Assembly: GCA_964016885.1 (NCBI GenBank)
Contig: OZ024743.1
Location: 88,660,001 to 88,724,000 of the forward strand
Reading direction: 5' to 3'
Source: Eledone cirrhosa
Taxonomy: Eukaryota
Length of the DNA stretch: 64,000 nt
Below, in pieces: positions 6,811 to 63,785 of the stretch. Each line of letters starts with the position of its first letter. Position 1 is the first letter of the stretch. A program made the position numbers and the translations under genes. The notes beneath the pieces are model-generated. The model ran no database searches. It was not told the origin of the DNA and was given only the letters and a program-made list of their open reading frames with translations.

Positions 6811-7139
6811 AATGTCTTTAAAAATTAACCCCTTAGCATTTAAATCGGTCATAGCCAGAATTCCTTCACCTCTTTCTGTTAAAATCGACTGTAAGTAGCG
6901 ACTCATACTGATGTTAAGATATTGTTCTCAAAATAAATAATATCAAAATCTCATAGACTCGATATTAAAGTGTTTACCATAAAAATAGAATAGTAAAAAT
7001 AAAGTAATGAATAAATTAAAGAGTTTAAAAAATGTCCCATTATTTTTCTCATCAAAATGTTTCCGAAACAATTTCAGCAACAATTTCAGCAAAAATAATC
7101 TCAAACGTTTTCCTGACACTTTTTGTTTTTCCTCCTGTT

Positions 7140-10100
7140 TGCTCTCCTTTCTCTCATTCTCCTACCCCTTGATCTCCCTTTCTCTCATTCTCCTACCGCT
7201 TGATCTCTCTTTCTCTCATTCTCCTACCCCTTGATCTCCCTTTCTCTTATTCTCCTACCCCTTGATCTCTCTTTCTCTCATTCTCCTACCCCTTGGTCTC
7301 TCTTTCTCTCATTCTCCTACCCCTTGATCTCTCTTTCTCTCATTCTCCTACCACTTGATCTCTCATTCTCTCATTCTCCTACCCCTTGATCTCTCTTTCT
7401 CACATTCTCCTACCCCTTGATCTCTCTTTCTCTCATTCTCCTACCCCTTGATCTCCCTTTCTCTCATTCTCCTACCCCTTGATCTCTCATTCTCATACCC
7501 CTTGATCTCTCATTCTCCTACCCCTTGATCTCTCTTTCTCTCATTCTCCTACCCCTTGATCTCTCTTTCTCTCATTCTCCTACCCCTTGATCTCTCTTTC
7601 TCTTATTCTCCTACCCCTTGATCTCTCTTTCTCTCATTCTCCTACCCCTTGATCTCTCTTTCTCTCATTCTCCTACCCCTTGATCTCCCTTTCTCTCATT
7701 CTCCTACCCCTTGATCTCCCTTTCTCTTATTCTCCTACCCCCTGATCTCTCTTTCTCTCATTCTCCTACCCCTTGATCTCCCTTTCTCTTATTCTCCTAC
7801 CCCTTGATCTCTCTTTCTCTTATTTTCCTACCCCTTGATCTCTCTTTCTCTCATTCTCCTGCCCCTTGATCTCCATTTCTCTCATTCTCCTACCCCTTGA
7901 TCTCTCTTTCTCTCATTCTCCTGCCCCTTGATCTCCATTTCTCTCATTCTCCTACCCCTTGATCTCTCTTTCTCTCATTCTCCTACCCCTTGATCTCTCT
8001 TTCTCTCATTCTCTTACCCCTTGATCTCCCTTTCTCTCATTCTCCTACCCCTTAATCTCTCTTTCTCTCATTCTCCTATCCCTTGATCTCTCATTCTCTC
8101 ATTCTCCTACCCCTTGATCTCTCTTTCTCTTATTCTCCTACCCCTTGATCTTTCTTTCTCTCATTCTCCTACCCCTTGATCTCTCTTTCTCTCATTCTCC
8201 TACCCCTTGATCTCTCTTTCTCTCATTCTCCTACCCCTTGACCTTTCTTTCTCTCATTCTCCTATCCCTTGATCTCTCTTTCTCTCATTCTCCTACCCCT
8301 TGATCTCTCTTTCTCTCATTCTCCTACCCCTTGATCTCTCTTTCTCTTATTCTCCTATCCCTTAATCTCCCTTTCTCTCATTCTCCTACCCCTTGATCTC
8401 TCTTTCTCTCATTCTCCTACCCCTTGATCTCTCTTTCTCTCATTCTCCTACACCTTGATCTCTCTTTCTCTTATTCTCCTACCCCTTGATCTCCCATTCT
8501 CTCATTCTCCTACACCTTGATCTCTTATTCTCCTACCCCTTGATCTCTCTTTCTCTCATTCTCCTGCCCCTTGATCTCCATTTTTCTCATTCTCCTACCC
8601 CTTGATCTCTCTTTCACTCATTCTCCTACCCCTTCATCTCTCTTTCTCTCATTCTCCTGCCCCTTGATCTCCATTTCTCTCATTCTCCTACCCCTTGATC
8701 TCTCTTTCTCTCATTCTCCTACCCCTTGATCTCTCTTTCTCTCATTCTCTTACCCCTTGATCTCCCTTTCTCTCATTCTCCTACCCCGTAATCTCTCTTT
8801 CTCTCATTCTCCTATCCCTTGATCTCTCATTCTCTCATTCTCCTACCCCTTGATCTCTCTTTCTCTTATTCTCCTACCCCTTGATCTTTCTTTCTCTCAT
8901 TCTCCTACCCCTTGATCTCTCTTTCTCTCATTCTCCTACCCCTTGATCTCTCTTTCTCTCATTCTCCTACCCCTTGATCTTTCTTTCTCTCATTCTCCTA
9001 CCCCTTGATCTCTCTTTCTCTCATTCTCCTACCCCTTGATCTCTCTTTCTCTCATTCTCCTACCCCTTGATCTCTCTTTCTCTTATTCTCCTATCCCTTA
9101 ATCTCCCTTTCTCTCATTCTCCTACCCCTTGATCTCTCTTTCTCTCATTCTCCTACCACTTGATCTCTCTTTCTCTCATTCTCCTACCCCTTGATCTCTC
9201 TTTCTCTCATTCTCCTACCCCTTGATCTCTCTTTCTCTCATTCTCCTACCCCTTGATCTCTCTTTCTCTTATTCTCCTACCACTTGATCTCCCTTTCTCT
9301 CATTCTCCTACCCCTTGATCTCCCATTCTCTCATTCTCCTACACCTTGATCTCTCATTCTCCTACCCCTTGATCTCTCATTCTCCTACCCCTTGATCTCT
9401 CTTTCTCTCATTCTCCTAACCCTTGATCTCTCTTTCTCTCATTCTCCTACCCCTTGATCTCTCTTTCTCTCATTCTCCTACCCCTTGATCTCTCTTTCTC
9501 TCATTCTCCTACCCCTTGATCTCCCTTTCTCTCATTCTCCGACCCCTTGATCTCCCTTTCTCTCATTCTCCTACCCCTTGATCTCTCATTTCCCAACCCT
9601 TGATCTCTCATTCTCCTACCCCTTGATCTCTCTTTCTTTCATTCTCCTACCCCTTGATCTCCCATTCTCTCATTCTCCTACACCTTGATCTCTCATTCTC
9701 CTACCCCTTGATCTCTCATTCTCCTACCCCTTGATCTCTCTTTCTCTCATTCGCCTACCCATTGATCTCTCTGTGTCTCATTCTCCTGCCCCTTGATCTC
9801 CATTTCTCTCATTCTCCTACCCCTTGATCTCTCTTTCTCTCATTCTCCTACCCCTTGATCTCCCTTTCTCTCATTCTCCTACCCCTTGATCTCTCTTTCT
9901 CTCATTCTCCTACCCCTTGATCTCCCATTCTCTCATTCTCCTACACCTTGATCTCTCATTCTCCTACCCCTTGATCTCTCATTCTCCTACCCCTTGATCT
10001 CTCTTTCTCTCATTCTCCTACCTCTTGATCTCTCTTTCTCTCATTCTCCTACCCCTTGATCTCTCTTTCTCTCATTCTCCTACCCCTTGATCTCTCTTTC

Positions 10101-13100
10101 TCTCATTCTCCTACCCCTTGATCTCCCTTTCTCTCATTCTCCTACCCCTTGATCTCCCTTTCTCTCATTCTCCTACCCATTGATCTCTCATTTCCCAACC
10201 CTTGATCTCTCATTCTCCTACCCCTTGATCTCTCTTTCTCTCATTCTCCTACCCCTTGATCTCCCATTCTCTCATTCTCCTACACCTTGATCTCTCATTC
10301 TCCTACCCCTTGATCTCTCATTCTCTTACCCCTTGATCTCTCTTTCTCTCATTCTCCTACCCATTGATCTCTCTTTCTCTCATTCTCCTGCCCCTTGATC
10401 TCCATTTCTCTCATTCTCTTACCCCTTGATCTCTCTTTCTCTCATTCTCCTACCCCTTGATCTCCCTTTCTCTCATTCACCTACCCATTGATCTCTCTTT
10501 CTCTCATTCTCCTACCCCTTGATCTCCCTTTCTCTCATTCCCCTACCCCTTGATCTCTCTTTCCCTCATTCTCCTACCCGTTGATCTCCCTTTCTCTCAT
10601 TCCCCTACCCCTTGATCGCTCTTTCTCTAATTCTCCTACCCCTTGATCTCTCTTTCTCTCATTCTCCTGCCCCTTGATCTCCATTTCTCTCATTCTCCTA
10701 CCCGTTGATCTCTCTTTCTCTAATTCTCCTACCCCTTGATCTCTCTTTCTCTCATTCTCCTGCCCCTTGATCTCCATTTCTCTCATTCTCCTACCCCTTG
10801 ATCTCTCTTTCTCTCATTCTCCTACCCCTTGATCTCTCTTTCTCTCATTCTCCTACCCCTTGATCTCCCTTTCTCTCATTCTCCGACCCCTTGATCTCCC
10901 TTTCTCTCATTCTCCTACCCCTTGATCTCTCATTTCCCAACCCTTGATCTCTCATTCTCCTACCCCTTGATCTCTCTTTCTCTCATTCTCCTACCCCTTG
11001 ATCTCCCATTCTCTCATTCTCCTACACCTTGATCTCTCATTCTCCTACCCCTTGATCTCTCATTCTCCTACCCCTTGATCTCTCTTTCTCTCATTCGCCT
11101 ACCCATTGATCTCTCTTTCTCTCATTCTCCTGCCCCTTGATCTCCATTTCTCTCATTCTCCTACCCCTTGATCTCTCTTTCTCTCATTCTCCTACCCCTT
11201 GATCTCCCTTTCTCTCATTCTCCCACCCCTTGATCTCTCTTTCTCTCATTCTCCTACCCCTTGATCTCCCATTCTCTCATTCTCCTACACCTTGATCTCT
11301 CATTCTCCTACCCCTTGATCTCTCATTCTCCTACCCCTTGATCTCTCTTTCTCTCATTCTCCTACCTCTTGATCTCTCTTTCTCTCATTCTCCTACCCCT
11401 TGATCTCTCTTTCTCTCATTCTCCTACCCCTTGATCTCTCTTTCTCTCATTCTCCTACCCCTTGATCTCCCTTTCTCTCATTCTCCTACCCCTTGATCTC
11501 CCTTTCTCTCATTCTCCTACCCATTGATCTCTCATTTCCCAACCCTTGATCTCTCATTCTCCTACCCCTTGATCTCTCTTTCTCTCATTCTCCTACCCCT
11601 TGATCTCCCATTCTCTCATTCTCCTACACCTTGATCTCTCATTCTCCTACCCCTTGATCTCTCATTCTCTTACCCCTTGATCTCTCTTTCTCTCATTCTC
11701 CTACCCATTGATCTCTCTTTCTCTCATTCTCCTGCCCCTTGATCTCCATTTCTCTCATTCTCTTACCCCTTGATCTCTCTTTCTCTCATTCTCCTACCCC
11801 TTGATCTCCCTTTCTCTCATTCACCTACCCATTGATCTCTCTTTCTCTCATTCTCCTACCCCTTGATCTCCCTTTCTCTCATTCCCCTACCCCTTGATCT
11901 CTCTTTCTCTCATTCTCCTACCCCTTGATCTCCCTTTCTCTCATTCCCCTACCCCTTGATCGCTCTTTCTCTAATTCTCCTACCCCTTGATCTCTCTTTC
12001 TCTCATTCTCCTGCCCCTTGATCTCCATTTCTCTCATTCTCCTACCCCTTGATCTCTCTTTCTCTCATTCTCCTACCCCTTGATCTCTCTTTCTCTCATT
12101 CTCCTACCCCTTGATCTCTCTTTCTCTCATTCTCCTACCCCTTGATCTCTCTTTCTCTTATTCTCCTATCCCTTAATCTCCCTTTCTCTCATTCTCCTAC
12201 CCCTTGATCTCCCTTTCTCTCATTCTCCTACCCCTTGATCTCTCTCTCTCATTCTCTTACCCCTTGATCTCCCATTCTCTCATTCTCCTACACCTTGATC
12301 TCTCATTCTCCTACCCCTTGATCTCTCTTTCTCTCATTCTCCTACCCCTTGATCTCTCTTTCTCTTATTCTCCTATCCCTTAATCTCCATTTCTCTCATT
12401 CTCCTACCCCTTGATCTCTCTTTCTCTCATTCTCCTACCCCTTGATCTCTCTTTCTCTCATTCTCCTACCCCTTGATTTCTCTTTCTCTCATTCTCCTAC
12501 CCTTTGATCTCTCTTTCTCTTATTCTCCTACCCCTTGATCTCCCTTTCTCTCATTCTCCTACCCCTTGATCTCCCTTTCTCTCATTCTCCTACCCCTTGA
12601 TCTCTCTTTCTCTCATTCTCCTACCCCTTGATCTCCCATTCTCTCATTCTCCTACCCCTTGATCTCTCATTCTCCTACCCCTTGATCTCTCATTCTCCTA
12701 CCCATTGATCTCTCTTTCTCTCATTCTCCTACCCCTTGATCTCTCTTTCTCTCATTCTCCTACCCTTTGATCTCCCTTTCTCTCATTCTCCTACCCCTTG
12801 ATCTCCCTTTCTCTCATTCTCCTACCCCTTGATCTCCCTTTCTCTTATTCTCCTACCCCTTGATCTCTCTTTCTCTCATTCTCCTACCCCTTGATCTCCC
12901 ATTCTCTCATTCTCCTACACCTTGATCTCTCATTCTCCTACCCCTTGATCTCTCATTCTCCTACCCCTTGATCTCTCTTTCTCTCATTCTCCTACCACTT
13001 GATCTCTCTTTTTCTCATTCTCCTACCCCTTGATCTCTCTTTCTCTCATTCTCCTACCCCTTGATCTCTCTTTCTCTCATTCTCCTACCCCTTGATCTCC

Positions 13101-15270
13101 CTTTCTCTCATTCTCCTACCCCTTGATCTCCCTTTCTCTCATTCTCCTACCCCTTGATCTCTCATTTCCCAACCCTTGATCTCTCATTCTCCTACACCTT
13201 GATCTCTCATTCTCCTACCCCTTGATCTCTCATTCTCCTACCCCTTGATCTCTCTTTCTCTCATTCTCCTACCCCTTGATCTCTCTTTCTCTCATTCTCC
13301 TACCTCTTGATCTCCCTTTCTCTCATTCACCTACCCCTTGATCTCTCTTTCTCTCATTCTCCTACCCCTTGATCTCCCTTTCTCTCATTCCCCTACCCCT
13401 TGATCTCTCTTTCTCTCATTCTCCTACCCCTGATCTCCCTTTCTCTCATTCCCCTACCCCTTGATCTCTCTTTCTCTAATTCTCCTACCCCTTGATCTCT
13501 CTTTCTCTCATTCTCCTGCCCCTTGATCTCCATTTCTCTCATTCTCATACCCCTTGATCTCTCTTTCTCTCATTCTCCTACCCCTTGATCTTTCTTTCTC
13601 TCATTCTCCTACCCCTTGATCTCTCTTTCTCTCATTCTCCTACCCCTTGATCTCTCTTTCTCTTATTCTCCTATCCCTTAATCTCCCTTTCTCTCATTCA
13701 CCTACCCCTTGATCTCCCTTTCTCTCATTCTCCTACCCCTTGATCTCTCTCTCTCTCATTCTCTTACCCCTTGATCTCCCATTCTCTCATTCTCCTACAC
13801 CTTGATCTCTCATTCTCCTACCCCTTGATCTCTCTTTCTCTCATTCTCCTACCCCTTGATCTCTCTTTCTCTTATTCTCCTATCCCTTAATCTCCATTTC
13901 TCTCATTCTCCTACCCCTTGATCTCTCTTTCTCTCATTCTCCTACCCCTTGATCTCTCTTTCTCTCATTCTCCTACCCCTTGATCTCTCTTTCTCTCATT
14001 CTCCTACCCTTTGATCTCTCTTTCTCTTATTCTCCTACCCCTTGATCTCCCTTTCTCTCATTCTCCTACCCCTTGATCTCCCTTTCTCTCATTCTCCTAC
14101 CCCTTGATCTCTCTTTCTCTCATTCTCCTACCCCTTGATCTCCCATTCTCTCATTCTCCTACCCCTTGATCTCTCATTCTCCTACCCCTTGATCTCTCAT
14201 TCTCCTACCCCTTGATCTCTCTTTCTCTCATTCACCTACCCCTTGATCTCTCTTTCTCTCATTCTCCTACCCCTTGATCTCCCTTTCTCTCATTCCCCTA
14301 CCCCTTGATCTCTCTTTCTCTCATTCTCCTACCCCTTGATCTCCCTTTCTCTCATTCCCCTACCCCTTGATCTCTCTTTCTCTCATCTCCTACCCTTGAT
14401 CTCCCTTTCTCTTATTCTCCTACCCCTTGATCTCTCTTTCTCTCATTCTTCTACCCCTTGATCTCCATTTCTCTCATTCTCCTACCCCTTGATCTCCCTT
14501 TCTCTCATTCCCCTACCCCTTGATCTCCATTTCTCTCATTCCCCTACCCCTTGATCTCTCTTTCTCTCATTCTCCTACCCCTTGATCTCCCTTTCTCTTA
14601 TTCTCCTACCCCTTGATCTCTCATTCTCCTACCAATTGATCTCTCATTCTCCTACCCCTTGATCTCTCTTTCTCTCATTCTCCTACCCCTTGATCTCTCT
14701 TTCTCTCATTCCCCTACCCCTTGATCTCTCTTTCTCTCATTCTCCTAGCCCTTGATCTCTCTTTCCCTCATTCTCCTACCCCTTGATCTCCCTTTCTCTC
14801 ATTCTCTTACCCCTTGATCTCCCTTTCTCTCACTCTCCTACCCCTTGATCTCTCATTTCCCAACCCTTGATCTCTCATTCTCCTACCCCTTGATCTCTCT
14901 TTCTCTCATTCTCCTACCCCTTGATCTCTCTTTCTCTCATTCTCCTACCCCTTGATCTCTCTTTCTCTCATTCTCCTACCCCCTTGATCTCTCTTTCTCT
15001 TATTCTCCTACCCCTTGATCTCTCTTTCTCTCATTCTCCTACCCCTTCATCTCTCTTTCTCTCATTCTCCTGCCCCTTGATCTCTCTTTCTCTTATTCTC
15101 CTACCCCTTTATCTCTCTTTCTCTCATTCTCCTACCCCTTGATCTCTCTTTCTCTCATTCTCCTACCCCTTGCTCTCTCTTTTTCTCATTCTCCTACCCC
15201 TTGATCTCTCTTTCTCTCATTCTCCTACCACTTGATCTCTCATTCTCATACCGCTTGATCTCTCTTTCTC
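7140..15270. repeat. Polypyrimidine satellite A, 31-bp unit ccccttgatctctctttctctcattctccta (with ~22-23-bp deletion variant), ~8.1 kb
   Basis: Direct tandem periodicity. Variant markers recur at a 1344-bp offset (9591/10935, 10193/11537). Confidence 0.97.
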
Positions 15271-18200
15271 TCATTCTCCCATTGTTCTCTCTTTCTCTTG
15301 CTCTCCTTTCTCACATTCTCCTCCTCTTCCTCTCTCTTTCTCTTGCTCTCCTTTCTCTCATTCTCCTCCCCTTTCTCTCTCTTTCTCTTGCTCTCCTTTC
15401 TCTCGTTCTCCCCCCCCCCCCCCCCCACCCCTGCTCTCCCTTTCTCTCATTCTCCTCTCCAATCTTTTTCTCTTGCTCTCCTTTCTCTCGTTCTCCCCCT
15501 TTCTCTCTCTTTCTCTTGCTCTCCTTCCCCCCATGCTCTCCCTTTCTCTCATTCTCCTCCCCTTTCTCTTTCTCTTGCTCTCCTTTCTCATTATCCCCTC
15601 TTTCTCTCTCTTTCTCTTGCTCTCCTTTCTCTCGTTCTACCCCCCTTCTCTCTCTTTCTCTTGCTCTCCTTTCTCTCGTTCTCCCCCATTTCTCTTTCTC
15701 TTGCTCCCCTTTCTCTCATTCTACCCCCCTTCTCTCTCTTTTTTCTTGCTCTCCTTTCTCTCGTTCTCCCCCATTTCTCTTTCTCTTGCTCTCCTTTCTC
15801 TCGTTCTCCCCCATTTCTCTTTCTCTTGCTCTCCTTTCTCTCATTCTCCCCTTTCTCTCTCATTCTCCCCCTTTCTCTCTCTTTCTCTTGCTCTCCTTTC
15901 TCTCGTTCTCCCCCCCCTTTGTTCTCTTTCTCTTGCTCTCCTTTCTCACATTCTCCTCCTCTTCCTCTCTCTTTCTCTTGCTCTCCTTTCTCTCATTCTC
16001 CCCCCCCCCCCCTCTCTCTTTCTCTTGCTCTCCTTTCTCTCGTTCTCCTCCCCCTTGCTCTCCCTTTCTCTCATTCTCCTCTCCAATCTTTTTCTCTTGC
16101 TCTCCTTTCTATCGTTCTCCCCCTTTCTCTCTCTTTCTCTTGCTCTCCTTTCTCTCGTTCTACCCCCCTTCTCTCTCTTTCTCTTGCTCTCCTTTCTCTC
16201 GTTCTCCCCCATTTCTCTTTCTCTTGCTTTCCTTTCTCTCATTCTCCCCTTTCTCTCTCATTCTCCCCCTTTCTCTCTCTTTCTCTTGCTCTCCTTTCTC
16301 TCGTTCTCCCCCCCCTTTTTCTCTCTTTCTCTTACTCTCCTTTCTCATATTATCGCCCCTTTCTCTCTCTTTCTCTTGCTCTCCTTTCTCACATTCTCCT
16401 CCTCTTCCTCTCTCTTTCTCTTGCTCTCCTTTCTCTCATTCTCCTCCCCCTTCTCTCTCTTTCTCTTGCTCTCCTTTCTCTCGTTCACCTCCCCCTTGCT
16501 CTCCCTTTCTCTCATTCTCCTCTCCAATCTTTTTCTCTTGCTCTCGTTCTCCCCCTTTCTCTCACTTTCTCTTGTTCTCCTTTCCCTCGCCCCCCATGCT
16601 CTCCCTTTCTCTCATTCTCCCCCCTTTCTCTTTCTCTTGCTCTCCTTTCTCATTATCCCCCCTTTCTCTCTCTTTCTCTTGCTCTCCTTTCTCTCATTCT
16701 CCCCCATTCTCTCTCTTTCTCTTGCTCTCATTTCTCTCGTTCTCCCCCATTTCTCTTTCTCTTGCTCTCCTTTCTCTCATTCTCCCCTTTCTCTCTCATT
16801 CTCCCCCTTTCTCTCTCTTTCTCTTGCTCTCCTTTCTCTCGTTCTCCCCCCCTGTTCTCTCTTTCTCTTGCTCTCCTTTCTCATATTCTCGCCCCTTTCT
16901 CTCTCTTTCTCTTGCTCTCCTTTCTCTCTTTCTCCACCCTTTCTCTCTCCTTCTCTTGCTCTCCTTTCTTTCGTTCTCCCCCTTTCTCTTTCTCTTGCTC
17001 TCCTTTCTCTCGTTCCCCCTCTTTCTCTCTCTTTCTCTTGCTCTCCTTTCTCACATTCTCCTCCTCTTCCTCTCCTTTCTCACATTCTCCTCCTCTTCCT
17101 CTCTCTTTCTCTTGCTCTCCTTTCTTTCATTCTCCTCCCCTTTCTCTCTCTTTCTCTTGCTCTCCTTTCTCTCGTTCTCCTCCCCCTTGCTCTCCCTTTC
17201 TCTCATTCTCCTCTCCAATCTTTTTCTCTGCTCTCCTTTCTCTCGTTCTCCCCCTTTCTCTCTCTTTCTCTTCCCCCCATGCTCTCCCTTTCTCTCATTC
17301 TCCTCCCCTTTCTCTTTCTCTTGCTTTCCTTTCTCATTATCCCCCCCCCCCTTTCTCTGTCTTTCTCTTGCTCTCCTTTCTCTCATTCTCCCCCCTCTCT
17401 CTCTCCTTCTCTTGCTCTCCTTTCTCTCGTTCTACCCCTCTCTTTCTCTTGCTCTCCTTTCTCTCGTTCTCCCCCTTTCTTTTTCTCTTGTTCTCCTTTC
17501 TCTCGTTCTCCCCTCTTTCTCTCTATTTCTCTTGCTCTCCTTTCTCTCATTATCGCCCTTTCTCTCTCTTTCTTTTGCTCTCCTTTCTCTCATTCTCCCC
17601 TTTCTCTCTCTTTCTCTTGCTCTCCTTTCTCTCATTCTCCCCCTTTCTCTCTCATTCTCTTGCTCTCCTTTCTCTCATTCTCCACCCTTTTCTCTCTTTC
17701 TCTTGCTCTCCTTTCTCTCGTTCTCCCCCCTTTCTCTCTCTATCTCTTGCTCTCCTTTCTCTCTCTTTCTCTTGCTCTCCTTTCTCTCATTCTCCCCCTT
17801 TCTCTCTCTTTCTCTTTCTCTTGCTCTCCTTTCTCTCATTCTCCCCCATTTCTCTCTCTTTCTCACGCTCTCCTTTCTCTCGTTCTCCCTTTTCTCTCTC
17901 TTTCTCTTGCTCTCCTTTCTCTCATTCTCCCCCCTTTCTCTCTCTTTCTCTTGCTCTCCTTTCTCTCATTGTCCTCCATTTCTCTCTCTTTCTCTTGCCC
18001 TCCTTTCTCTCATTCTCCCCCATTTCTCTCTCTTTCTCTTGCTCTCCTTTCTCTCGTTCTCCCCCTTTCTCTTTCTCTTGCCTTCCTTTCTCTCGTCCCC
18101 CCTTTTCTCTCTCTTTCTCTTGCTCTCCTTTCTCTTTCTCTTGCTATCCTTTCTCTCATTCTCCCCCCTTTCTCTTTCTCTTTCTCTTGCCCTCCTTTCT

Positions 18201-21200
18201 CTTGTGCTCCCCCCTTCTCTTGTGCTCTCCCCTTTCTCTCTCTTTATCTTGCTCTCATTTCTCTCGTTCTCCCTTCTTTCTCTTTCTCTTGCTCTCCTTT
18301 CTCTCGTTCTCCCCCTTTCTCTTTCTCTTGCTCTCCTTTCTCTCATTCTCCCCCCTTTCTCTGTCTCTTTCTCTTGCCCCCCTTTCTCTTGTGCTCCCCC
18401 CTTCTCTCTCTATCTCTTTCTCTCCTTTCTCTCATTCTCCCCCCTTTCTCCTTCTCTTGCTCTCCTTTCTCTCGTTCTCCCTCATTTCTCTCTCTTTCTC
18501 TTGCTCTCTTTTAGCTCATTCTCCCCCTTTCTCTCTCTTTCTCTTGCTCCCCTTTCTCTTTCTCTTGCTATCCTTTCTCTCATTCTCCCCCCTTTCTCTT
18601 TCTCTTTCTCTTGCCCTCCTTTCTCTTGTGCTCCCCCCTTCTCTTGTGCTCTCCCCTTTCTCTCTCTTTATCTTGCTCTCATTTCTCTCGTTCTCCCTTC
18701 TTTCTCTTTCTCTTGCTCTCCTTTCTCTCGTTCTCCCCCTTTCTCTTTCTCTTGCTCTCCTTTCTCTCATTCTCCCCCCTTTCTCTGTCTCTTTCTCTTG
18801 CCCTCCTTTCTCCTGTGCTCCCCCCTTTCTCTTGTGCTCCCCCCTTCTCTCTCTATCTCTTGCTCTCCTTTCTCTCATTCTCCCCCCTTTCTCTTTCTCT
18901 TGCTCTCCTTTCTCTCGTTCTCCCCCATTTCTCTCTCTTTCTCTTGCTCTCCTTTCTCTCGTTCTCCCCCTTTCTATTTCTCTTGCCTTACTTTCTCTCG
19001 TCCCCCCTTTTCTCTCTCTTTCTCTTGCTCTCCTTTCTCTTTCTCTTGCTATCCTTTCTCTCATTCTCCCCCTTTCTCTTTCTCTTTCTCTTGCCCTCCT
19101 TTCTCTTGTGCTCCCCCCTTCTCTTGTGCTCTCCCCTTTCTCTCTCTTTCTCTTGCTCTCCTTTCTCTCGTTCTCCCTTCTTTCTCTTTCTCTTGCTCTC
19201 CTTTCTCTCGTTCTCCCCCTTTCTCTTTCTCTTGCTCTCCTTTCTCTCATTCTCCCCCTTTCTCTGTCTCTTTCTCTTGCCCTCCTTTCTCCTGTGCTCC
19301 CCCCTTTCTCTTGTGCTCCCCTCTTCTCTCTCTATCTCTTGCTCTCCTTTCTCTCATTCTCCCCCCTTTCTCTTTCTCTTGCTCTCCTTTCTCTCGTTCT
19401 CCCCCATTTCTCTCTCTTTCTCTTGCTCTCTTTTAGCTCATTCTCCCCCTTTCTCTCTCTTTCTCTTGCTCCCCTTTCTCTTTCTCTTGCTATCCTTTCT
19501 CTCATTCTCCCCCCTTTCTCTTTCTCTTTCTCTTGCCCTCCTTTCTCTTGTGCTCCCCCCTTCTCTTGTGCTCTCCCCTTTCTCTCTCTTTATCTTGCTC
19601 TCATTTCTCTCGTTCTCCCTTCTTTCTCTTTCTCTTGCTCTCCTTTCTCTCGTTCTCCCCCTTTCTCTTTCTCTTGCTCTCCTTTCTCTCATTCTCCCCC
19701 TTTTTCTGTCTCTTTCTCTTGCCCTCCTTTCTCCTGTGCTCCCCCCTTTCTCTTGTGCTCCCCCCTTCTCTCTCTATCTCTTGCTCTCCTTTCTCTCATT
19801 CTCCCCCTTTCTCTTTCTCTTGCTCTCCTTTCTCTCGTTCTCCCTCATTTCTCTCTCTTTCTCTTGCTCTCCTTTCTCTCGTTCTCCCCCTTTCTCTTTC
19901 TCTTGCCTTCCTTTCTCTCGTCCCCCCTTTTCTCTCTCTTTCTCTTGCTCTCCTTTCTCTTTCTCTTGCTATCCTTTCTCTCATTCTCCCCCCTTTCTCT
20001 TTCTCTTTCTCTTGCCCTCCTTTCTCTTGTGCTCCCCCCTTCTCTTGTGCTCTCCCCTTTCTCTCTCTTTATCTTGCTCTCATTTCTCTCGTTCTCCCTT
20101 CTTTCTCTTTCTCTTGCTCTCCTTTCTCTCGTTCTCCCCCTTTCTCTTTCTCTTGCTCTCCTTTCTCTCATTCTCCCCCCTTTCTCTGTCTCTTTCTCTT
20201 GCTCTCCTTTCTCCTGTGCTCCCCCCTTTCTCTTGTGCTCCCCCCTTCTCTCTCTATCTCTTGCTCTCCTTTCTCTCATTCTCCCCCCTTTCTCTTTCTC
20301 TTGCTCTCCTTTCTCTCGTTCTCCCCCATTTCTCTCTCTTTCTCTTGCTCTCTTTTAGCTCATTCTCCCCCTTTCTCTCTCTTTCTCTTGCTCCCCTTTC
20401 TCTTTCTCTTGCTATGCTTTCTCTCATTCTCCCCCTTTCTCTTTCTCTTTCTCTTGCCCTCCTTTCTCTTGTGCTCCCCCCTTCTCTTGTGCTCTCCCCT
20501 TTCTCTCTCTTTATCTTGCTCTCATTTCTCTCGTTCTCCCTTCTTTCTCTTTCTCTTGCTCTCCTTCCTCTCGTTCTCCCCCTTTCTCTTTCTCTTGCTC
20601 TCCTTTCTCTCATTCTCCCCCCTTTCTCTGTCTCTTTCTCTTGCCCTCCTTTCTCCTGTGCTCCCCCCTTTCTCTTGTGCTCCCCCCTTCTCTCTCTATC
20701 TCTTTCTCTCCTTTCTCTCATTCTCCCCCCTTTCTCTTTCTCTTGCTCTCCTTTCTCTCGTTCTCCCCCATTTCTCTCTCTTTCTCTTGCTCTCCTTTCT
20801 CTCGTTCTCCCCCTTTCTCTTTCTCTTGCTCTCCTTTCTCTCATTCTCCCCCCTTTTTCTGTCTCTTTCTCTTGCCCTCCTTTCTCCTGTGCTCCCCCCT
20901 TTCTCTTGTGCTCCCCCCTTCTCTCTCTATCTCTTGCTCTCCTTTCTCTCATTCTCCCCCTTTCTCTTTCTCTTGCTCTCCTTTCTCTCGTTCTCCCTCA
21001 TTTCTCTCTCTTTCTCTTGCTCTCCTTTCTCTCGTTCTCCCCCTTTCTCTTTCTCTTGCCTTCCTTTCTCTCGTTTTCCCTTTTCTCTCTCTTTATCTTG
21101 CTCTCATTTCTCTCGTTCTCCCTTCTTTCTCTTTCTCTTGCTCTCCTTTCTCTCGTTCTCCCCCTTTCTCTTTCTCTTGCTCTCCTTTCTCTCATTCTCC

Positions 21201-21800
21201 CCCCTTTCTCTGTGTCTTTCTCTTGCCCTCCTCTCTCCTGTGCTCCCCCCTTTCTCTTGTGCTCCCCCCTTCTCTCTCTATCTCTTGCTCTCCTTTCTCT
21301 CATTCTCCCCCCTTTCTCTTTCTCTTGCTCTCCTTTCTCTCGTTCTCCCCCATTTCTCTTTCTTTCTCTTGCTCTCTTTTAGCTCATTCTCCCCCTTTCT
21401 CTCTCTTTCTCTTGCCCTCCTTTCTCTCATTCTCCCCCATTTCTCTCTCTTTCTCTTGCTCTCCTTTCTCTCGTTCTCCCCCCCCCCATTTCTCTCTCTT
21501 TCTCTTGCTGTTCTTTCTCTCATTCTCCCTCCTTTCTCTTTCTCTTGCTCTCCTTTCTCTCATTCTCCCCCATTTCTCTCTCTTTCTCTTTCTCTCGTTC
21601 TCCCCCCCCATTTCTCTCTCTTTCTCTTGCTGTCCTTTCTCTCATTCTCCCTCCTTTCTCTTTCTCTTGCTCTCCTTTCTCTCATTATCCCCCTTTCTCT
21701 CTCTTTCTTTTGCTCTCATTTCTCTCATTCTCCCCCTTTTCTCTCTCTTTCTCTTGCTCTCATTTCTCTCGTTCTCTTCCACCTTGCTCTCTGTTTCTCT
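15271..21800. repeat. Polypyrimidine satellite B, ~38-45-bp unit tttctcttgctctcctttctctc(a/g)ttctccccc, ~6.5 kb
   Basis: Tandem periodicity. The marker ttagctcatt at 18511, 19433, 20355 and 21379 gives a 922-bp higher-order unit. Confidence 0.95.
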
Positions 21801-22769
21801 TAGCCTTCTTCCAAAGACACTTATACAAGGTGGCATGCAGTTAAATAGAACCTGTAACCAGAAAGTTGTGAATCAAACTTCTTAACCACATAGCTAAGCC
21901 TGCACATAGGATCATGTGACCATTATGTCATATTACATGATATCACATGATATCACAAGATATTATAATAGTTAACCCTAGATGTTATGCTAACATCCCA
22001 CATCACATAGTATCACTGTAGATATATCTATATGCAGTCACATGATATTACACGATTCATTAAAAAACAAATATTGTATTGTGTTACATGATATCACAGG
22101 ATATCTCATAATATTACAGTAGATATGCTGAGTCATATATTATGTCACATCAGATACATGTTATGTGGTATTTAGTCGTGACACAGTAGTGTACGTCACA
22201 GCACATCACAGCACGTTACAGCATGTCACATATATACAAACATACATACATATATATATACATATATACAGACATATTCATACATATATACATACATACA
22301 TATATACATATATACAAACATACATATATACATACATATATACACACACACACATACATACATATACACATCCATATACACATATATACATACATCATAC
22401 ATCATACATCATACATCATCATCAGCCTACAATAACTTCAACCTCTCTTTTACTGACACAATTGGAGAATTATCAGACATGGTGATACAATAATGGAGTT
22501 TGTGGATATATAATATATATATATATCATCATCATCATCGTCATCATTGTTTAACGTCTATCTTCCACGCTAGCATGGGTTTATATATATATATATTATT
22601 TATATGATGGGAGGGTGGGGGTGAGAAAAGAGAAGGAGAAAGTCAAGATATTAGATAGGTAGCTATGATGGTGGTAGTGGTGGTGGTGGTGGTATTGTTG
22701 GTACTGGTGATGGGGTTGGTTGTGGTAGTGATGGTAGTGTTCATAGTAGTGTTAATGGTAGTGATGGTG

Positions 22770-23143
22770 GTAGTAGTGAGGCCGATGGTAGTCACGGTGG
22801 TGGTGGTGGTGGTGGTGAGGCTGGCGGTAGTCACGGTGGTGGTGGTGGTGGTGAGGCTGGCGGTAGTCACGGTGGTGGTGGTAGTAGTAAGGCCGATGGT
22901 AGTCACGGTGGTGGTGGTGGTAGTGAGGTTGGCGGTAGTCACGGTGGTGGTGGTGGTGGTAGTAGTGAGGCCGATGGTAGTCACGGTGGTGGTGGTGGTA
23001 GTAGTGAGGCTGGCGGTAGTCACGGTGGTGGTGGTGGTGGTAGTAGTGAGGCCGATGGTAGTCACGGTGGTGGTGGTGGTAGTAGTGAGGCTGGCGGTAG
23101 TCACGGTGGTGGTGGTGGTGGTAGTAGTGAGGCCGATGGTAGT

Positions 23144-23175
<32 letters not shown>

Positions 23176-23805
23176 TGAGGCTGGCGGTAGTCACGGTGGT
23201 GGTGGTGGTGGTGGTGGTAGTAGTGAGGCTGGCGGTAGTCACGGTGGTGGTGGTGGTGGTGGTATTGTCGATAATAAGGCAGTGGTAAACACTTGTATTG
23301 ATCTCTGTAGCAGTACCATCACTACCATCAGCCTCATTACTACCACCACCACCACCACCACCACCGTGACTACCATCGGCCTCACTACTACCACCACCAC
23401 CACCACCGTGACTACCATCGGCCTCACCACCACCACCACCACCACCACCGTGACTACCATCGGCCTCACTACTACCACCACCACCACCACCGTGACTACC
23501 GCCAGCCTCACTACCACCACCACCACCGTGACTACCATCGGCCTCACTACTACCACCACCACCACCACTGTGACTACCGCCAGCCTCACTACCACCACCA
23601 CCACCGTGACTACCATCGGCCTCACTACTACCACCACCACCACCACTGTGACTACCGCCAGCCTCACTACCACCACCACCACCGTGACTACCATCGGCCT
23701 CACTACTACCACCACCACCACCACCGTGACTACCGCCAGCCTCACTACTACCACCACCACCACCACCGTGACTACCGCCAGCCTCACTACTACCACCACC
23801 ACCAT
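22770..23805. repeat. Inverted pair of (GGT)n-based minisatellite arrays around a ~60-bp spacer
   Basis: Units gtgaggccgatggtagtcacggtggtg / gtgaggctggcggtagtcacgg at 22770-23260; reverse complements at 23320-23805. Confidence 0.92.
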
Positions 23806-32009: not shown

Positions 32010-32166
32010 ATATATTTAATATAGAAATGACTTCTACAGGACTAGAACTGTTTCATTCGAATGAAACAGTTCTAGTCCTGTAGAAGCCATTTCTATATTA
32101 AATAATTATACTCTGCTATGTATTGAGTACCTTACTTACTGTGGTTACCCCGATTGAACCCGGGAT
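32010..32166 (+). mobile_element. Near-perfect palindrome (32010-32104) plus tail, TA-embedded, with HHR 3' half
   Basis: Apex ttcattcgaatgaa; GAAACAGUUCUAGUC; tail tgtattgagtaccttacttactgtgg shared with 63736. Confidence 0.8.
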
Positions 32167-32205
32167 ACACATATCTATATCTATATCTATATCTATATAT
32201 ATATA

Positions 32206-32251
<46 letters not shown>

Positions 32252-32392
32252 AATTAAAATACTAGAGTGTGTTGGAGTTAAACACCCTCTTCATATTATA
32301 GAAATGACAGTATAAGATATAGCTCAATGTAATTAAACAGAGCCGAAGAATTATAAAAAATAAACCAAAGAAGCCTTCAATACATCAAAAGT

Positions 32393-32446
32393 CTTTATTA
32401 GCCAACAATGTTTCATCCTATTAAGGACTCATCAGGGCAAGTAAAG
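32393..32446 (-). ncRNA. Minimal type I hammerhead ribozyme, apparently intact
   Basis: CUUUAcuuGCC-CUGAUGA-GUCC uuaaua GGAU-GAAAC auu GUU-GGCuaaUAAAG. Confidence 0.85.
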
Positions 32447-33015
32447 CTACAAGAAGCACTATCGGCCAATACAAGCCAAAAACTCGGAAGAATAGGGAGT
32501 ATACATCTATTAAAGCTTAGCTTATATATATATATATATTCAGTTATTGGCGGTTTCAATAAGAGTTCTTCTGCAAACGAAACCATGGTAGGGAGATCTT
32601 TATGTAAGGGAATTTAGATAGAATATTTTTTTGTCTATCTTTTTGTCTATCTTATAACTGTAATTTTGCTTCCTGCATTTTGTTTTGTTTTATTTATTAA
32701 CTATATATATATATATATATATATATTCCTTGACTAGGTTGTGTTTTGTGTTCTTGGACAAAACACTTCATTTCATGTTGCTCCAATACACTCAGCTGAA
32801 AATGAGCACGAGGTGTAGCAGGGAGTTTAATCCTATGATGGACTGGTGTCCTGTCCAGAGGGTAGTTTTTAACCCTCAGTTGCTTAATGCCATGAAAAGT
32901 GGGATAAGCACCAGCCTGATGAATTTCTGGGCTTGAGTTAGACTTTTAGATGTATGTATGTAATGTTTCAAGAATGTATGCATAAAACCGTCTCTATTCT
33001 TTATAATATATATAA

Positions 33016-36845: not shown

Positions 36846-37024
36846 CTTTTTTCCTTATATATATATAAGGGAATGAATATGACCGCAGCTAGTAAACAAG
36901 GACCCACACCTCACCCACCCGCACCAAAATTAGACTTATCGTCCCCTACTTTTGCTCTTTACTCTCTTTACTCTTTGTTCTTGAATGTTTGGTTGGTAGA
37001 GTCCATAACACCAATCAAACCCTT

Positions 37025-37084
37025 TTTATAGCTCTGACGAATCCTACGCTTACGTAAGGAAGAAACATTGTAAGCCAATATAAA
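37025..37084 (+). ncRNA. Minimal type I hammerhead ribozyme
   Basis: UUUAUA GCU-CUGACGA-A UCCU ACG cuua CGU a AGGA A-GAAAC auu GUA-AGC caa UAUAAA. Confidence 0.8.
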
Positions 37085-37309
37085 TACAGAGTATATATAT
37101 ATAAATACAGAGTATTTCATTAGAAATACAATCACAAAAGTGCTTTATATGTATATCTATCTATGTATATCTGTCTATGTGTGTGTGTATAATAATAATT
37201 GTTTCTACTTTTGGCACAAGGCCAGCAATTACCCAGTGCATTACTGGTACTTTATTTTATCGACCCCGTAAGGATGAAAGGCAAAGTAAACCTCGGGGGG
37301 TGTATGTAT

Positions 37310-44828: not shown

Positions 44829-45140
44829 TAGCTTTCACCGTATTTTTTGACTAAAGAAATGTTAGTCTGATAATGGGGTTTAGAACCCTCAGATAAGTGG
44901 AAAAAGATGAGTATTGACGTACATGGGAGGCGAACCCCCATCTTTGGTTATCCAGACCACTGTGCTACCATTTACACCAACACATCATTGGTGTAAATGG
45001 TAGTACAGTGGTCTGGATAACCAAAGATATGGGTTCGCCTCCCATGTACGTCAATACTCATCTTTTTCCACTTATCTGAGGGTTCTAAACCCCGTTATCA
45101 GACTAACATTTCTTTAGTCAAAAAATACGGTGAAAACTAT
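44829..45140. repeat. ~150-bp-arm palindrome with a tRNA-like sequence at its apex
   Basis: Arms 44829-44980 / 44988-45140; tggtgtaaatggtag(c/t)ac..tggt ctggata acca..gggttcgcctccc resembles A box, anticodon arm and B box. Confidence 0.85.
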
Positions 45141-49565: not shown

Positions 49566-50601
49566 CACACACACAGACATGCGCAATCACACCCAGACAC
49601 ACACACACACACATATATATATACACATAGTATATATAGCCTGTAGCTATTTCAATGATACAAAGTTGAAGGGAGCTGCTGTAAGATAGCTTATTCATTA
49701 AAACTTCATAAAAAAGACGTTTGTCTGCTGCTGAGGAGCAGCTATAGCAGAGACTAAGTGTGAGGATTATTTAGTGTTAATTAACCTCGACTAATCCTCT
49801 TAAATATCATTAATACCAATGTCTGACACTCAAACCTTAAAATACACAAAGGATTTCTTTTCAGGAGAAATACTTCTATTTTTACAACTTCTCATGTTTG
49901 ACATGGGATGGGAAGGGGATGGGATAAGGTGAGGAGGAAGGTTTCTTTCTTTCTTTTTTCTTTCCTTCTCTTTTTCTCTCTCTCTCTCTGTGTAGCATTG
50001 CCTATCTCTTTCCCTCTCTACCTCCAATTTCTCTACTATTGTCTCTTATCTCTTTTTCTCTAATCTTGCCTTTCCTCTCTCTACCACTAACTCTCCTCAT
50101 CCTATCTCTGTACCATTGCCTCTCTTTCTTTCTAACTCTCTTTCTAACCTTGCTTCTTTTTTCTCTACCACTATATCCTCCACCCTTTTTTCACTATATA
50201 CAACTGCCTTACTCTCTTCGGGAAGTCGTTATTATATCATGACCAATTCTAATAAATCAGAAAGGAAGAAGACTCACATGGGAGGTTATGATAGAACTGA
50301 AGTAGCTGACCTTATGGGATTATTTATCCTCGACAGCCTCAGGAATTAAACCTCTCCCAACATTTTAAGATTGTACAGAGATGATGCATTGGATGTTTTG
50401 CTTTTTATTTTGCAATATGGACTGATAAGGTTATTCAAGGATTTTGGCTTAAATATAACCATCTCCACCATCTTAATAATACCTAATTTCCTAGATACTA
50501 AATTAAGCTCTCAAGATTGATAATCACCCTTATTAAAAACCAAATAGGAAAATGGTATATATTAATAAAACCTCTAACCATCCTCCAGCTATAATTAGTT
50601 A

Positions 50602-52391: not shown

Positions 52392-53060
52392 GTGGCAGTG
52401 GTGGTGATGGTAGTAGTGATGGTGGTGGTGGTAATGGTGGTGGTGATAGTGGTGATAGTGGCAGTGATGGTTGTGGCAGTGGTGGTGATGGTAGTAGTGA
52501 TGGTGGTGGTGGTAATGGTGGTGGTGATAGTGGTGATAGTGGCAGTGGTGGTTGTGGTAGTGGTGGTGATGGTAGTAGTGATGGTGGTGGTGGTAATGGT
52601 GGTGGTGATAGTGGTGATAGTGGCAGTGGTGGTTGTGGCAGTGGTGGTGATGGTAGTAGTGATGGTGGTGGTGGTAATGGTGGTGGTGATAGTGGTGATA
52701 GTGGCAGTGATGGTTGTGGCAGTGGTGGTGATGGTAGTAGTGATGGTGGTGGTGGTAATGGTGGTGGTGATAGTGGTGATAGTGGCAGTGGTGGTTGTGG
52801 CAGTGGTGGTGATGGTAGTAGTGATGGTGGTGGTGGTAATGGTGGTGGTGATAGTGGTGATAGTGGCAGTGGTGGTTGTGGCAGTGGTGGTGATGGTAGT
52901 AGTGATGGTGGTGGTGGTAATGGTGGTGGTGATAGTGGTGATAGTGGCAGTGGTGGTTGTGGTAGTGGTGGTGATGGTAGTAGTGATGGTGGTGGTGGTA
53001 ATGGTGGTGGTGATAGTGGTGATAGTGGCAGTGATGGTTGTGGCAGTGGTGGTGATGGTA
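52392..53060. repeat. Minisatellite, 81-bp GGT-based unit x~8
   Basis: 27-codon periodicity in ORFs 52326..53123 and 52357..53070. Confidence 0.92.
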
Positions 53061-53254
53061 GTGTCGACAATAGTATTGGTGATGGTAGTGATAGTGGTGG
53101 CTGTTGTGGTAATGGTAAGGTGATAGTGATGGTGTGATGATGGTGAGGATGGTGGTGGTGTTAATGGTAATGATGGAGGTTGTGCTGGTAGATGTAGTGG
53201 AAGTGGAAGGGGTTATGATAATGATGCTGATGAAGTTAATGATAATGTGCAAAC

Positions 53255-54150
53255 TACCACCACCATCATCCCTGCCACCACCACTAGTTCTGACGTTGCT
53301 ACCACAGCCACCACCACCACCACCATCACCCCCGCCACCACCACTGCTTCTGACGTTGCTACCACAGCCACCACCACCATCACCCCCGCCACCACCACTG
53401 CTTCTGACGTTGCTGCCACAGCCACCACCACCACCACCATCACCCCCGCCACCACCACTGCTTCTGACGTTGCTACCACAGCCACCACCACCACCACCAC
53501 CACCACCATCACCCCGCCGCCACCATCAACATCACCCCGCCACCACCACTGCTTCTGACGTTGCTGCCACAGCCACCACCACCACCACTGCTTCTGACGT
53601 TGCTACCACAGCCACCGCCACCATTACCATCACCCACCCCGCCACCACCACTGCTTCTGACGTTGCTACCCCAGCCACCACCACCACCACAGCCACCACC
53701 ACCACCACCATCACCCCCGCCACCACCACTGCTTCTGACGTTGCTGCCACAGCCACCACCACCACCACAGCCACCACCACCACCACCACCATCACCCCCG
53801 CCACCACCACTGCTTCTGACGTTGCTGCCACAGCCACCACCACCATCACCCCCGCCACCACCACTGCTTCTGACGTTGCTGCCACAGCCACCACCACCAC
53901 CACCACCATCACCCCCGCCACCACCACTGCTTCTGACGTTGCTGCCACAGCCACCACCACCACCACCACCATCACCCCCGCCACCACCACTGCTTCTGAC
54001 GTTGCTGCCACAGCCACCACCACCACCACCACCATCACCCCCGCCACCACCACTGCTTCTGACGTTGCTGCCACAGCCACCACCACCACCACCACCATCA
54101 CCCCCGCCACCACCACTGCTTCTGACGTTGCTGCCACAGCCACCACCAGT
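53255..54150. repeat. Minisatellite, ~57-63-bp unit containing ctgcttctgacgttgct, ~14 copies
   Basis: Direct tandem periodicity. Confidence 0.92.
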
Positions 54151-54782
54151 GAGAGCATCAGATATCTTACCCCCACCCACTCCACCCTATCTGTCTAATG
54201 TGAGTCAGCATCAGTGACCCACCACCACCACCACCACCACCACCACCAACACCACCACCAACACCAACACCACCACCACCACCACCATGAATACCCCCCC
54301 CCCCCCCATCAACACCACTCCACCACTACCATTACCCCTTTCCCCCATCACCGCTACCACCATCACTACCATCACCCCTCCACACATCACCACTACCCCT
54401 TCTTTCCACCCACGCATATGCACACACACACACACATTCAAACACACATCCACACACACATGCACACATACACACATACACACATGTTCATATATGTATA
54501 ACAACAACCGTCTGGTCTGGATCAGCTGGAAGAGGGGGAGGAGGAGTGGTCAATGATCAATGTAAGAAAAACAGGGAAGGGTGGGTGGTAGGGAGTAGGG
54601 AGGGGGACGCGAGTTACAGGTTGGTTACCATAGAAACTGTAAAGATGGGGAAGATGGGATGACCATTATTATTATTATCTCTGTAAACACGATGTGTGAT
54701 CAATATTTGACATCTGGTTAATGTATAAGATACTTATTGGGTATTGATGTGACATATATATATGTATATATATATACACATG

Positions 54783-56411: not shown

Positions 56412-57506
<1,095 letters not shown>

Positions 57507-63600: not shown

Positions 63601-63785
63601 GCTTCTACAGGACTAAAACTGTTTCATTTGAAGGAAATTATCAGGAAAGCCCTGATGATTTCCTTCAAATGAAACAGTGAAAAACAGTCCTGTAGAAGTA
63701 ATTTCTATATAAAATTTTGTATATATACTCTACTATGTATTGAGTACCTTACTTACTGTGGTTACCCTCGATTGAACCCAGGACT
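63601..63785 (+). mobile_element. Fold-back insert of the 32.0-kb family with HHR core CUGAUGA..GAAAC
   Basis: Arms 63602-63646 / 63651-63700; tail near identical to 32106-32165. Confidence 0.8.

What the first reader, a model, noticed from the sequence alone, without database searches (positions are those of the whole stretch)
32393..32446. Canonical-core hammerhead on the minus strand
CUGAUGAGUCC-UUAAUA-GGAUGAAAC closely resembles the classic hammerhead core and stem II. Stem I has an internal loop (GCC/GGC, then CUUUA/UAAAG) that could dock loop II. It lies in a 270-bp island bounded by (TA)n.
Basis: partly seen in the sequence, partly recalled or inferred. Interest (0 to 1): 0.72.

Follow-up and report, generated by a model that had tools for sequence, protein, structure and literature searches.

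The report
Hammerhead ribozyme in Penelope-like retrotransposon end
This is a real hammerhead ribozyme motif sitting in a 270-base leftover end of a young, high-copy Penelope-like jumping gene; like others of its kind it would likely cut only when two copies pair up, so this lone copy is probably inactive and the finding is mostly ordinary.

Summary
The motif is there as described (minus strand, 32446-32393): intact type I hammerhead core, cut site GUU| between 32404 and 32403. The (TA)n-bounded island (32249-32520) is the 5'-truncated 3' end (pseudo-LTR) of a Penelope-like retrotransposon of the Hydra clade. Full copies have a ~900-codon RT + GIY-YIG frame and one ribozyme per 4.3-4.6 kb unit, in tandem and inverted arrangements. 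There are 1,199 exact or one-base-variant copies of the 38-nt ribozyme centre, and 8,028 related cores, in the genome. Hammerheads in Hydra elements are published (Craig 2021); this family was not found in the tables read. The two-part stem I is kept in 14 of 16 chosen family representatives. Canonical loop I-loop II docking is not supported: proximal helix I is 3 bp, not 6, and helix II varies from 14 to 21 nt among sister families. One new lead: AAUAAA (or AUUAAA/AGUAAA) sits 5 nt after the cut, inside stem I, in 7,250 of 8,028 cores, but in only 1 of 25 published Hydra families. Cleavage and expression were not tested.

The parts
32249..32520 (-). 5'-truncated 3' end (pseudo-LTR plus ~100-nt tail) of a Hydra-clade Penelope-like element
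   Evidence: 98.1% and 95.2% identical to the two pLTRs of full copy L088; 40 top genome hits 98-99% identical; shared 3' end TTTTAATTCT
32393..32446 (-). type I hammerhead motif
32429..32435 (-). core CUGAUGA
32415..32428 (-). helix II: GUCC/GGAU plus a likely fifth pair U-A and loop UAAU; closing pair G-U (family majority G-C)
32404..32414 (-). core GAAA, palindromic helix III strand ACAUUGU (32411-32405) and U17; predicted cut between 32404 and 32403
   Evidence: monomer hairpin +3.7, two-copy duplex -2.3 kcal/mol
32436..32446 (-). 5' arm of helix I: distal CUUUA, loop CUU, proximal GCC
32393..32403 (-). 3' arm of helix I: GGC, UAA, UAAAG; holds AAUAAA at 32399-32394
32457..32470 (-). upstream 14-mer predicted to pair with 32410-32397 and mask the cut site (this subfamily only)
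   Evidence: no compensatory changes seen
32264..32290 (-). hairpin near the 3' end of the tail
   Evidence: 91.1% of cells paired in 15 copies, no two-sided change
32171..32248 (.). (TA)n tract at the element's 3' junction (insertion target)
32524..32539 (.). (TA)n tract at the 5' truncation point

Best explanation
The motif is the type I hammerhead in the pseudo-LTR of a young Hydra-clade Penelope-like retrotransposon, and the island is a 5'-truncated copy of that end inserted in (TA)n; the ribozyme is predicted to cut only as a dimer, so this lone copy is likely inactive. Shown: the element's anatomy (pLTR with ribozyme, ATG 226 nt after the cut, RT + GIY-YIG frame, ~1.7 kb 3' UTR, second pLTR), its two preferred 3' ends about 55 and 155 nt after the cut, and its copy number. 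Inferred from published work on such elements: a transcript of a tandem copy carries two ribozymes about 4.5 kb apart, whose ACAUUGU palindromes would pair to build helix III, probably with protein help, and cutting would release a unit-length RNA; the element's RT would start inside the RNA at one of the two end sites after the endonuclease nicks (TA)n, and early stopping gives 3' fragments such as this one. This copy has no ORF, no same-strand partner in the window, a G-U in place of G10.1-C11.1 (likely CpG decay), and a predicted masking helix.
For: Family: 2,356 first-look candidates, top 40 at 98-99%. 27 of 30 loci show a TA-rich run within a few bases of the shared 3' end; L008 runs into other sequence and L017 into the ORF leader (read by eye). 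Tandem pLTR-to-ORF junctions; ribozyme spacing 4,347-4,600 nt in 8 of 8 tandem copies measured. Inverted 5' copies ending at the short end. Of 21 pattern-picked copies, 10 end near +155, 10 at +43 to +58 (6 binned '~55', 4 at +43), 1 runs into the ORF. Protein: RWR, DKT, CxCx5C, CxxC, CxH, the Hydra marks in PMC8557442 section 11; GIY-YIG Pfam hit E 5e-4, just under its cut-off. Helix III monomer probability 0.00-0.04 in all 29 representatives; its middle base takes all four letters across families while ACA/UGU mostly stays. Published Hydra ribozymes show the same palindromic helix III (File S2).
Against: No cleavage or expression data. Rfam score is below gathering. Pfam found no RT domain in the three frames scanned; RT is assigned from motifs (YRDD) and 35-45% identity to ~700-aa homologues. 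No tree was built against the published clades. In the anole element, ribozyme cleavage needed protein, was not needed for insertion in vitro, and no RNA reads ended at the cut (PMC11167929), so 'releases a unit-length RNA' is uncertain. None of the copies translated had a fully open frame, so present activity is not shown.
Confidence: 0.85

Rival explanations
1. Canonical, tertiary-stabilised hammerhead: this subfamily shortened helix II to 4 bp plus UUAAUA, and that loop docks on the stem I internal loop, giving fast cleavage at low Mg2+.
For: 4 bp plus 6-nt loop fits the canonical helix II size (PMC4209133). The distal helix I arm is conserved (14 of 16 against 7 of 48 control windows). The short form is the high-copy, near-identical one.
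Against: Proximal helix I is 3 bp, canonical 6. Loop II ends behave as a fifth pair, and the loop differs by a TTA unit between subfamilies. The same stem I goes with helix II regions of 14-21 nt. Helix III still cannot form in one molecule.
Confidence: 0.15
2. The stem I 3' arm is kept because it is the element's poly(A) signal. Folding of the ribozyme hides AAUAAA and cleavage removes it from the ORF RNA, so the ribozyme chooses between polyadenylated mRNA and read-through template. This can hold together with the best explanation.
For: A[AGU]UAAA at +5 in 7,250 of 8,028 cores (against 43). A at +5 in 25 of 25 representatives although unpaired in this family, while +4 and +11 to +26 vary. 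The two family-level variants are AUUAAA and AGUAAA (recalled as the common poly(A) variants). U/GU-rich sequence follows. It is the first sense AAUAAA after the stop codon in 4 of 4 copies of this family checked.
Against: Families share ancestry, and counts are dominated by a few high-copy ones. The 25 representatives were filtered for A-rich +7 to +10. Only 1 of 25 published Hydra families has AAUAAA at +5 (File S2, counted by eye). No significant lack of AAUAAA upstream: 1 seen against about 3.8 expected over 6 non-independent UTR pieces. UAAA is also explained by pairing with UUUA. No RNA data.
Confidence: 0.15
3. A non-autonomous retrozyme or satellite monomer of about 270 nt that propagates through a small circular RNA.
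For: Size near the 220-390 nt animal retrozyme monomers with type I hammerheads (PMC7229834).
Against: No head-to-tail ~270-nt repeats in 30 loci. 5' ends vary and continue into the ORF-bearing element in other copies. The unit between ribozymes is about 4.5 kb.
Confidence: 0.02
4. A host-domesticated, single-locus regulatory ribozyme, or a chance match.
For: None beyond the intact core.
Against: More than a thousand near-identical dispersed copies. This copy differs from its 29 nearest by three recurrent substitutions, one weakening the ribozyme.
Confidence: 0.02

Closest known systems
Hydra clade of Penelope-like elements (Craig et al. 2021, PMC8557442; includes Hydra-1_Obim from Octopus bimaculoides)
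   Same: C-terminal GIY-YIG, RW[KR], DKT, CxCx5C, CxxC and CxH motifs, (TA)n targets, inverted 5'-truncated copies, type I hammerhead with palindromic helix III near the 3' end.
   Different: Unit 4.3-4.6 kb against generally <3 kb; ~900-codon frame with 120-140 extra Asn/Ser/Arg-rich residues after the RT; ~1.7 kb 3' UTR; ~100-nt tail against the 30-40 bp described for such elements; ribozyme sequence differs from all 25 Hydra families in File S2, including Hydra-1_oBim (by eye).
Minimal hammerheads of metazoan Penelope-like elements (Cervera and De la Pena 2014, PMC4209133)
   Same: In pLTRs, palindromic helix III, short proximal helix I, mostly solo truncated copies, dimer model.
   Different: This subfamily has a short helix II (4-5 bp) without the extra 5' nucleotide, where theirs is 7-8 bp; sister families here have the long form. 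A distal helix I is conserved here.
Canonical type I hammerheads of Schistosoma and non-LTR retrozymes (PMC7229834; bioRxiv 10.64898/2026.07.22.740005)
   Same: Core, 4-bp helix II with 6-nt loop, weak palindromic helix III.
   Different: Helix I proximal 3 bp against 6; no short tandem arrays; part of an autonomous element.
PAc Poseidon element of Anolis (PMC11167929)
   Same: Two preferred 3' ends defining a tail; AT-rich targets; hammerhead at the pLTR-ORF junction.
   Different: There the cut lies inside the ORF; here it is 226 nt before the ATG.

Membership tests
Type I hammerhead ribozyme | Core CUGANGA...GAAA...UH with three helices, open ends in helix I | tested here: met
Type I hammerhead ribozyme | Rfam gathering score | tested here: not met
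   HH9 24.3 bits against 52; lower-scoring clan overlaps were not shown
Type I hammerhead ribozyme | Self-cleavage | not testable with these tools
   needs an assay
Canonical (loop-loop) type I hammerhead | Helix I of 6 bp before the interacting loop | tested here: not met
   3 bp here, 3-4 bp in most sister families against 6
Canonical (loop-loop) type I hammerhead | Conserved 4-bp helix II and loop II nucleotides | tested here: inconclusive
   fits in this subfamily; not kept in sister subfamilies
Penelope-like element | Single frame with RT and GIY-YIG endonuclease | tested here: met
   RT by motifs and homology, not by Pfam
Penelope-like element | Tandem pLTR, inverted 5'-truncated copy, optional tail | tested here: met
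Hydra clade | RWK, DKT, CxCx5C linker, CxxC and CxH beside the conserved E and N | tested here: met
   RWR 38, DKT 129, CxCx5C 744 in L092; CxxC and CxH in P0001; by-eye match to Hydra proteins in the supplement
Hydra clade | Insertion into (TA)n and hammerhead near the 3' end | tested here: met
Hydra clade | Generally short (<3 kb); a tendency, not a diagnostic | tested here: not met
   4.3-4.6 kb
Hydra clade | RT phylogeny groups with Hydra | not tested
   reference sequences were seen only as supplement text
Non-LTR retrozyme | Short head-to-tail repeats, non-coding | tested here: not met

The most novel reading that the evidence does not exclude
In this genome's radiation of Hydra elements (about 8,000 ribozyme copies, many families) the hammerhead is fused with the poly(A) signal: AAUAAA is the 3' arm of a conserved distal helix I, 5 nt after the cut. 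The ribozyme would then act as a 3'-end switch that hides the signal in the upstream pLTR and chooses between polyadenylated mRNA and read-through template carrying the RT start sites. That would be a concrete function for Penelope-like hammerheads other than simple self-excision.
Probability: 0.15. Interest if true: 0.65.

Novelty: new member of a known kind. Interest (0 to 1): 0.27.

Why it matters
As a locus it is ordinary: one of more than a thousand dead 3' fragments. As a family it adds a long, recently amplified Hydra-clade element with full pLTR structure. It also offers a natural series of sister ribozymes with the same helix I and helix III but helix II regions of 14-21 nt, a ready set for testing what these ribozymes need, which is an open question (PMC8557442 section 15 passage; PMC11167929). 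The AAUAAA lead would matter if 3'-end data bore it out.

Tried and rejected
Expression: no RNA holder listed; the three runs laid are contigs of unknown kind from one sample, and their depth was not used as evidence. Earlier scan notes: nothing by place, sequence or words. Covariation within the family is weak: 1 pair with a two-sided change, 21 of 500 shuffles reach the paired percentage, outer distal pair broken in 4 of 15. The masking helix 32470-32457 beats 200 of 200 shuffles in this subfamily but in none of the related element families at that level, shows no compensatory change and was picked after the fact: kept as a note only. Depletion of AAUAAA in 3' UTRs: not significant. The 92-bp palindrome at 32013-32104 is unrelated to the element. 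Genome search for the third hammerhead-like motif returned nothing, not even itself (the search skips very common words). Lunse et al. (PMC5785218) is not held; only its title was seen in a reference list. The host species was not determined.

Full report
Observation. It has a full hammerhead core, a 4-5 bp helix II, a 3-bp proximal helix I, a 3x3 internal loop and a 5-bp distal helix. The cut would fall after GUU, between 32404 and 32403. Alone the motif is modest: z -2.08 and an Rfam HH9 score of 24.3 bits, under the gathering score of 52. Between GAAA and the cut lies ACAUUGU, a palindrome. As a hairpin it costs +3.7 kcal/mol; between two copies it gives -2.3.

What it is part of. The island is a repeat: 2,356 first-look candidates, the 40 scored at 98-99%. 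Copies share a 3' end (TTTTAATTCT, mostly followed by TA runs) and differ at the 5' end. Longer copies run into a frame with RT and GIY-YIG motifs. Searching with that frame's 5' part gave copies in which the ribozyme-bearing end is joined directly to the ORF, the ATG lying 226 nt after the cut. Eight tandem copies have ribozymes 4,347-4,600 nt apart, and many carry an inverted, truncated copy at the 5' side. The protein has RWR, DKT, YRDD, CxCx5C, CxxC and CxH, the marks listed for the Hydra clade (PMC8557442 section 11). Its 120 listed homologues have a median of 706 residues and mostly share these motifs; the five best lack a 120-140 residue stretch after the RT. Copies end either near +55 or near +155 from the cut (20 of 21), the tail pattern that the anole element traces to two RT start sites (PMC11167929). 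The window copy has the long end. It differs from its 29 nearest copies at three recurrent places, one being U for C at position 11.1 (36 against 1,163 copies).

Ribozyme comparison. A looser pattern finds 8,028 cores with an ACANUGU palindrome (control 46), in many families. For two of them I traced a Hydra-type frame at about 60% identity. From 192 motifs in my loci I clustered 29 representatives and kept 16. The 13 dropped were 5'- or 3'-truncated junction copies, three unrelated hits, a near-duplicate and two decayed copies with broken stems, so the count leans in favour of structure. Of the 16, 14 have UUUR placed to pair with UAAA (control windows 7 of 48). The outer pair is C-G in 6, U-A in 2 and a purine-purine mismatch in 6. 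A permutation gave 13 of 10,000, but the representatives are related, so this is not a probability. Within the family the formal count is weak. So the distal helix is probably real. Canonical docking is unlikely: helix I has 3 proximal pairs against 6 (PMC4209133), the internal loop's 5' side is 1-4 nt, the helix II region is 14-21 nt, and the ends of 'loop II' change as U-A, U-G, C-G. It is not excluded for this short-helix subfamily.

How it likely works. Published work on such ribozymes finds no cleavage as monomers, low cleavage as dimers (PMC4209133; review PMC6765202) and protein dependence in one element. I infer the same here. In the pLTR context ViennaRNA also gives helix I a probability of only 0.01-0.04 in this subfamily, because an upstream 14-mer pairs over the cut; this lacks covariation support. 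The window copy has no ORF and no same-strand partner ribozyme in the 64 kb, so it is likely a dead insertion.

The AAUAAA lead. The 3' arm of helix I holds AAUAAA at +5. A[AGU]UAAA is at that place in 7,250 of 8,028 cores. Against a general role: 1 of 25 published Hydra families has it there (File S2, counted by eye), upstream depletion is not significant, and pairing alone explains part of it. Searches for a paper linking these ribozymes to a poly(A) signal gave nothing on the point; the library lacks most subscription papers. The Clec2 hammerhead, which cuts between stop codon and poly(A) signal, is a known parallel (PMC6765202 passage).

Prior art. Hammerheads in Hydra elements, including one from Octopus bimaculoides, are tabulated in Craig 2021; that ribozyme's sequence differs from this one. 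Searches found no description of this family; Repbase and Dfam were not available. Papers seen: PMC4209133 parts 1-2 of 4; PMC8557442 outline, section 11, passages, supplement part 2 of 59 and two supplement searches; PMC11167929 and PMC7229834 passages; PMC6765202 passages and the second half of section 11; bioRxiv 10.64898/2026.07.22.740005 part 1 of 5 and passages, supplements not seen. Poly(A) variant hexamers and the CpG-decay reading are recalled knowledge.

Verdict. Observation confirmed; interpretation partly supported. A new family of a known clade carrying a known kind of ribozyme. Interest 0.27.

Noticed in passing
window 37024-37085 (+): Second type I hammerhead (core at 37034, long bulged helix II, same ACAUUGU palindrome, cut after 37072) in a truncated end of a sister Hydra family; 1,447 first-look candidates; tandem parent copies with about 4,960-nt spacing and 62% identical RT.
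   Followed up: yes
window 57087-57117 (+): Third hammerhead-like motif (ACUAGU palindrome, extra U before helix II); 19 hits in 12 of 184 loci fetched for other reasons, often in tandem or inverted pairs; parent not traced.
   Followed up: partly
window 32013-32104: Near-perfect 92-bp palindrome in TA runs (z -16.8); arms recur in 18 loci with variable middles; looks like a MITE. A related piece may lie near 63652-63700.
   Followed up: partly
window 50278-50599 (+): Degenerate fragment of a Hydra-type RT, 40% identical to the family protein.
   Followed up: no
window 7139-21800: About 14.6 kb of extremely pyrimidine-skewed satellite: 31-bp unit x 277, decaying into CT-rich arrays.
   Followed up: no
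window 44915-44986 (-): Weak tRNA match (35.6 bits), possibly a tRNA-derived SINE head.
   Followed up: no
L092:4233-6743 (-), residues about 490-630: Asn/Ser/Arg-rich insertion with an internal repeat between RT and linker, absent from the five best homologues and from the sister family.
   Followed up: partly
L037:7752-8795 (-), L043:2294-3205 (-), L052:2502-3125 (+), L095:2-1513 (-): Other Penelope-like frames (different clades and Hydra families) lie next to these copies, in line with shared (TA)n targets.
   Followed up: no
window 22757-23804 and 52392-54397: GGT/ACC-rich minisatellites in inverted arrangement.
   Followed up: no
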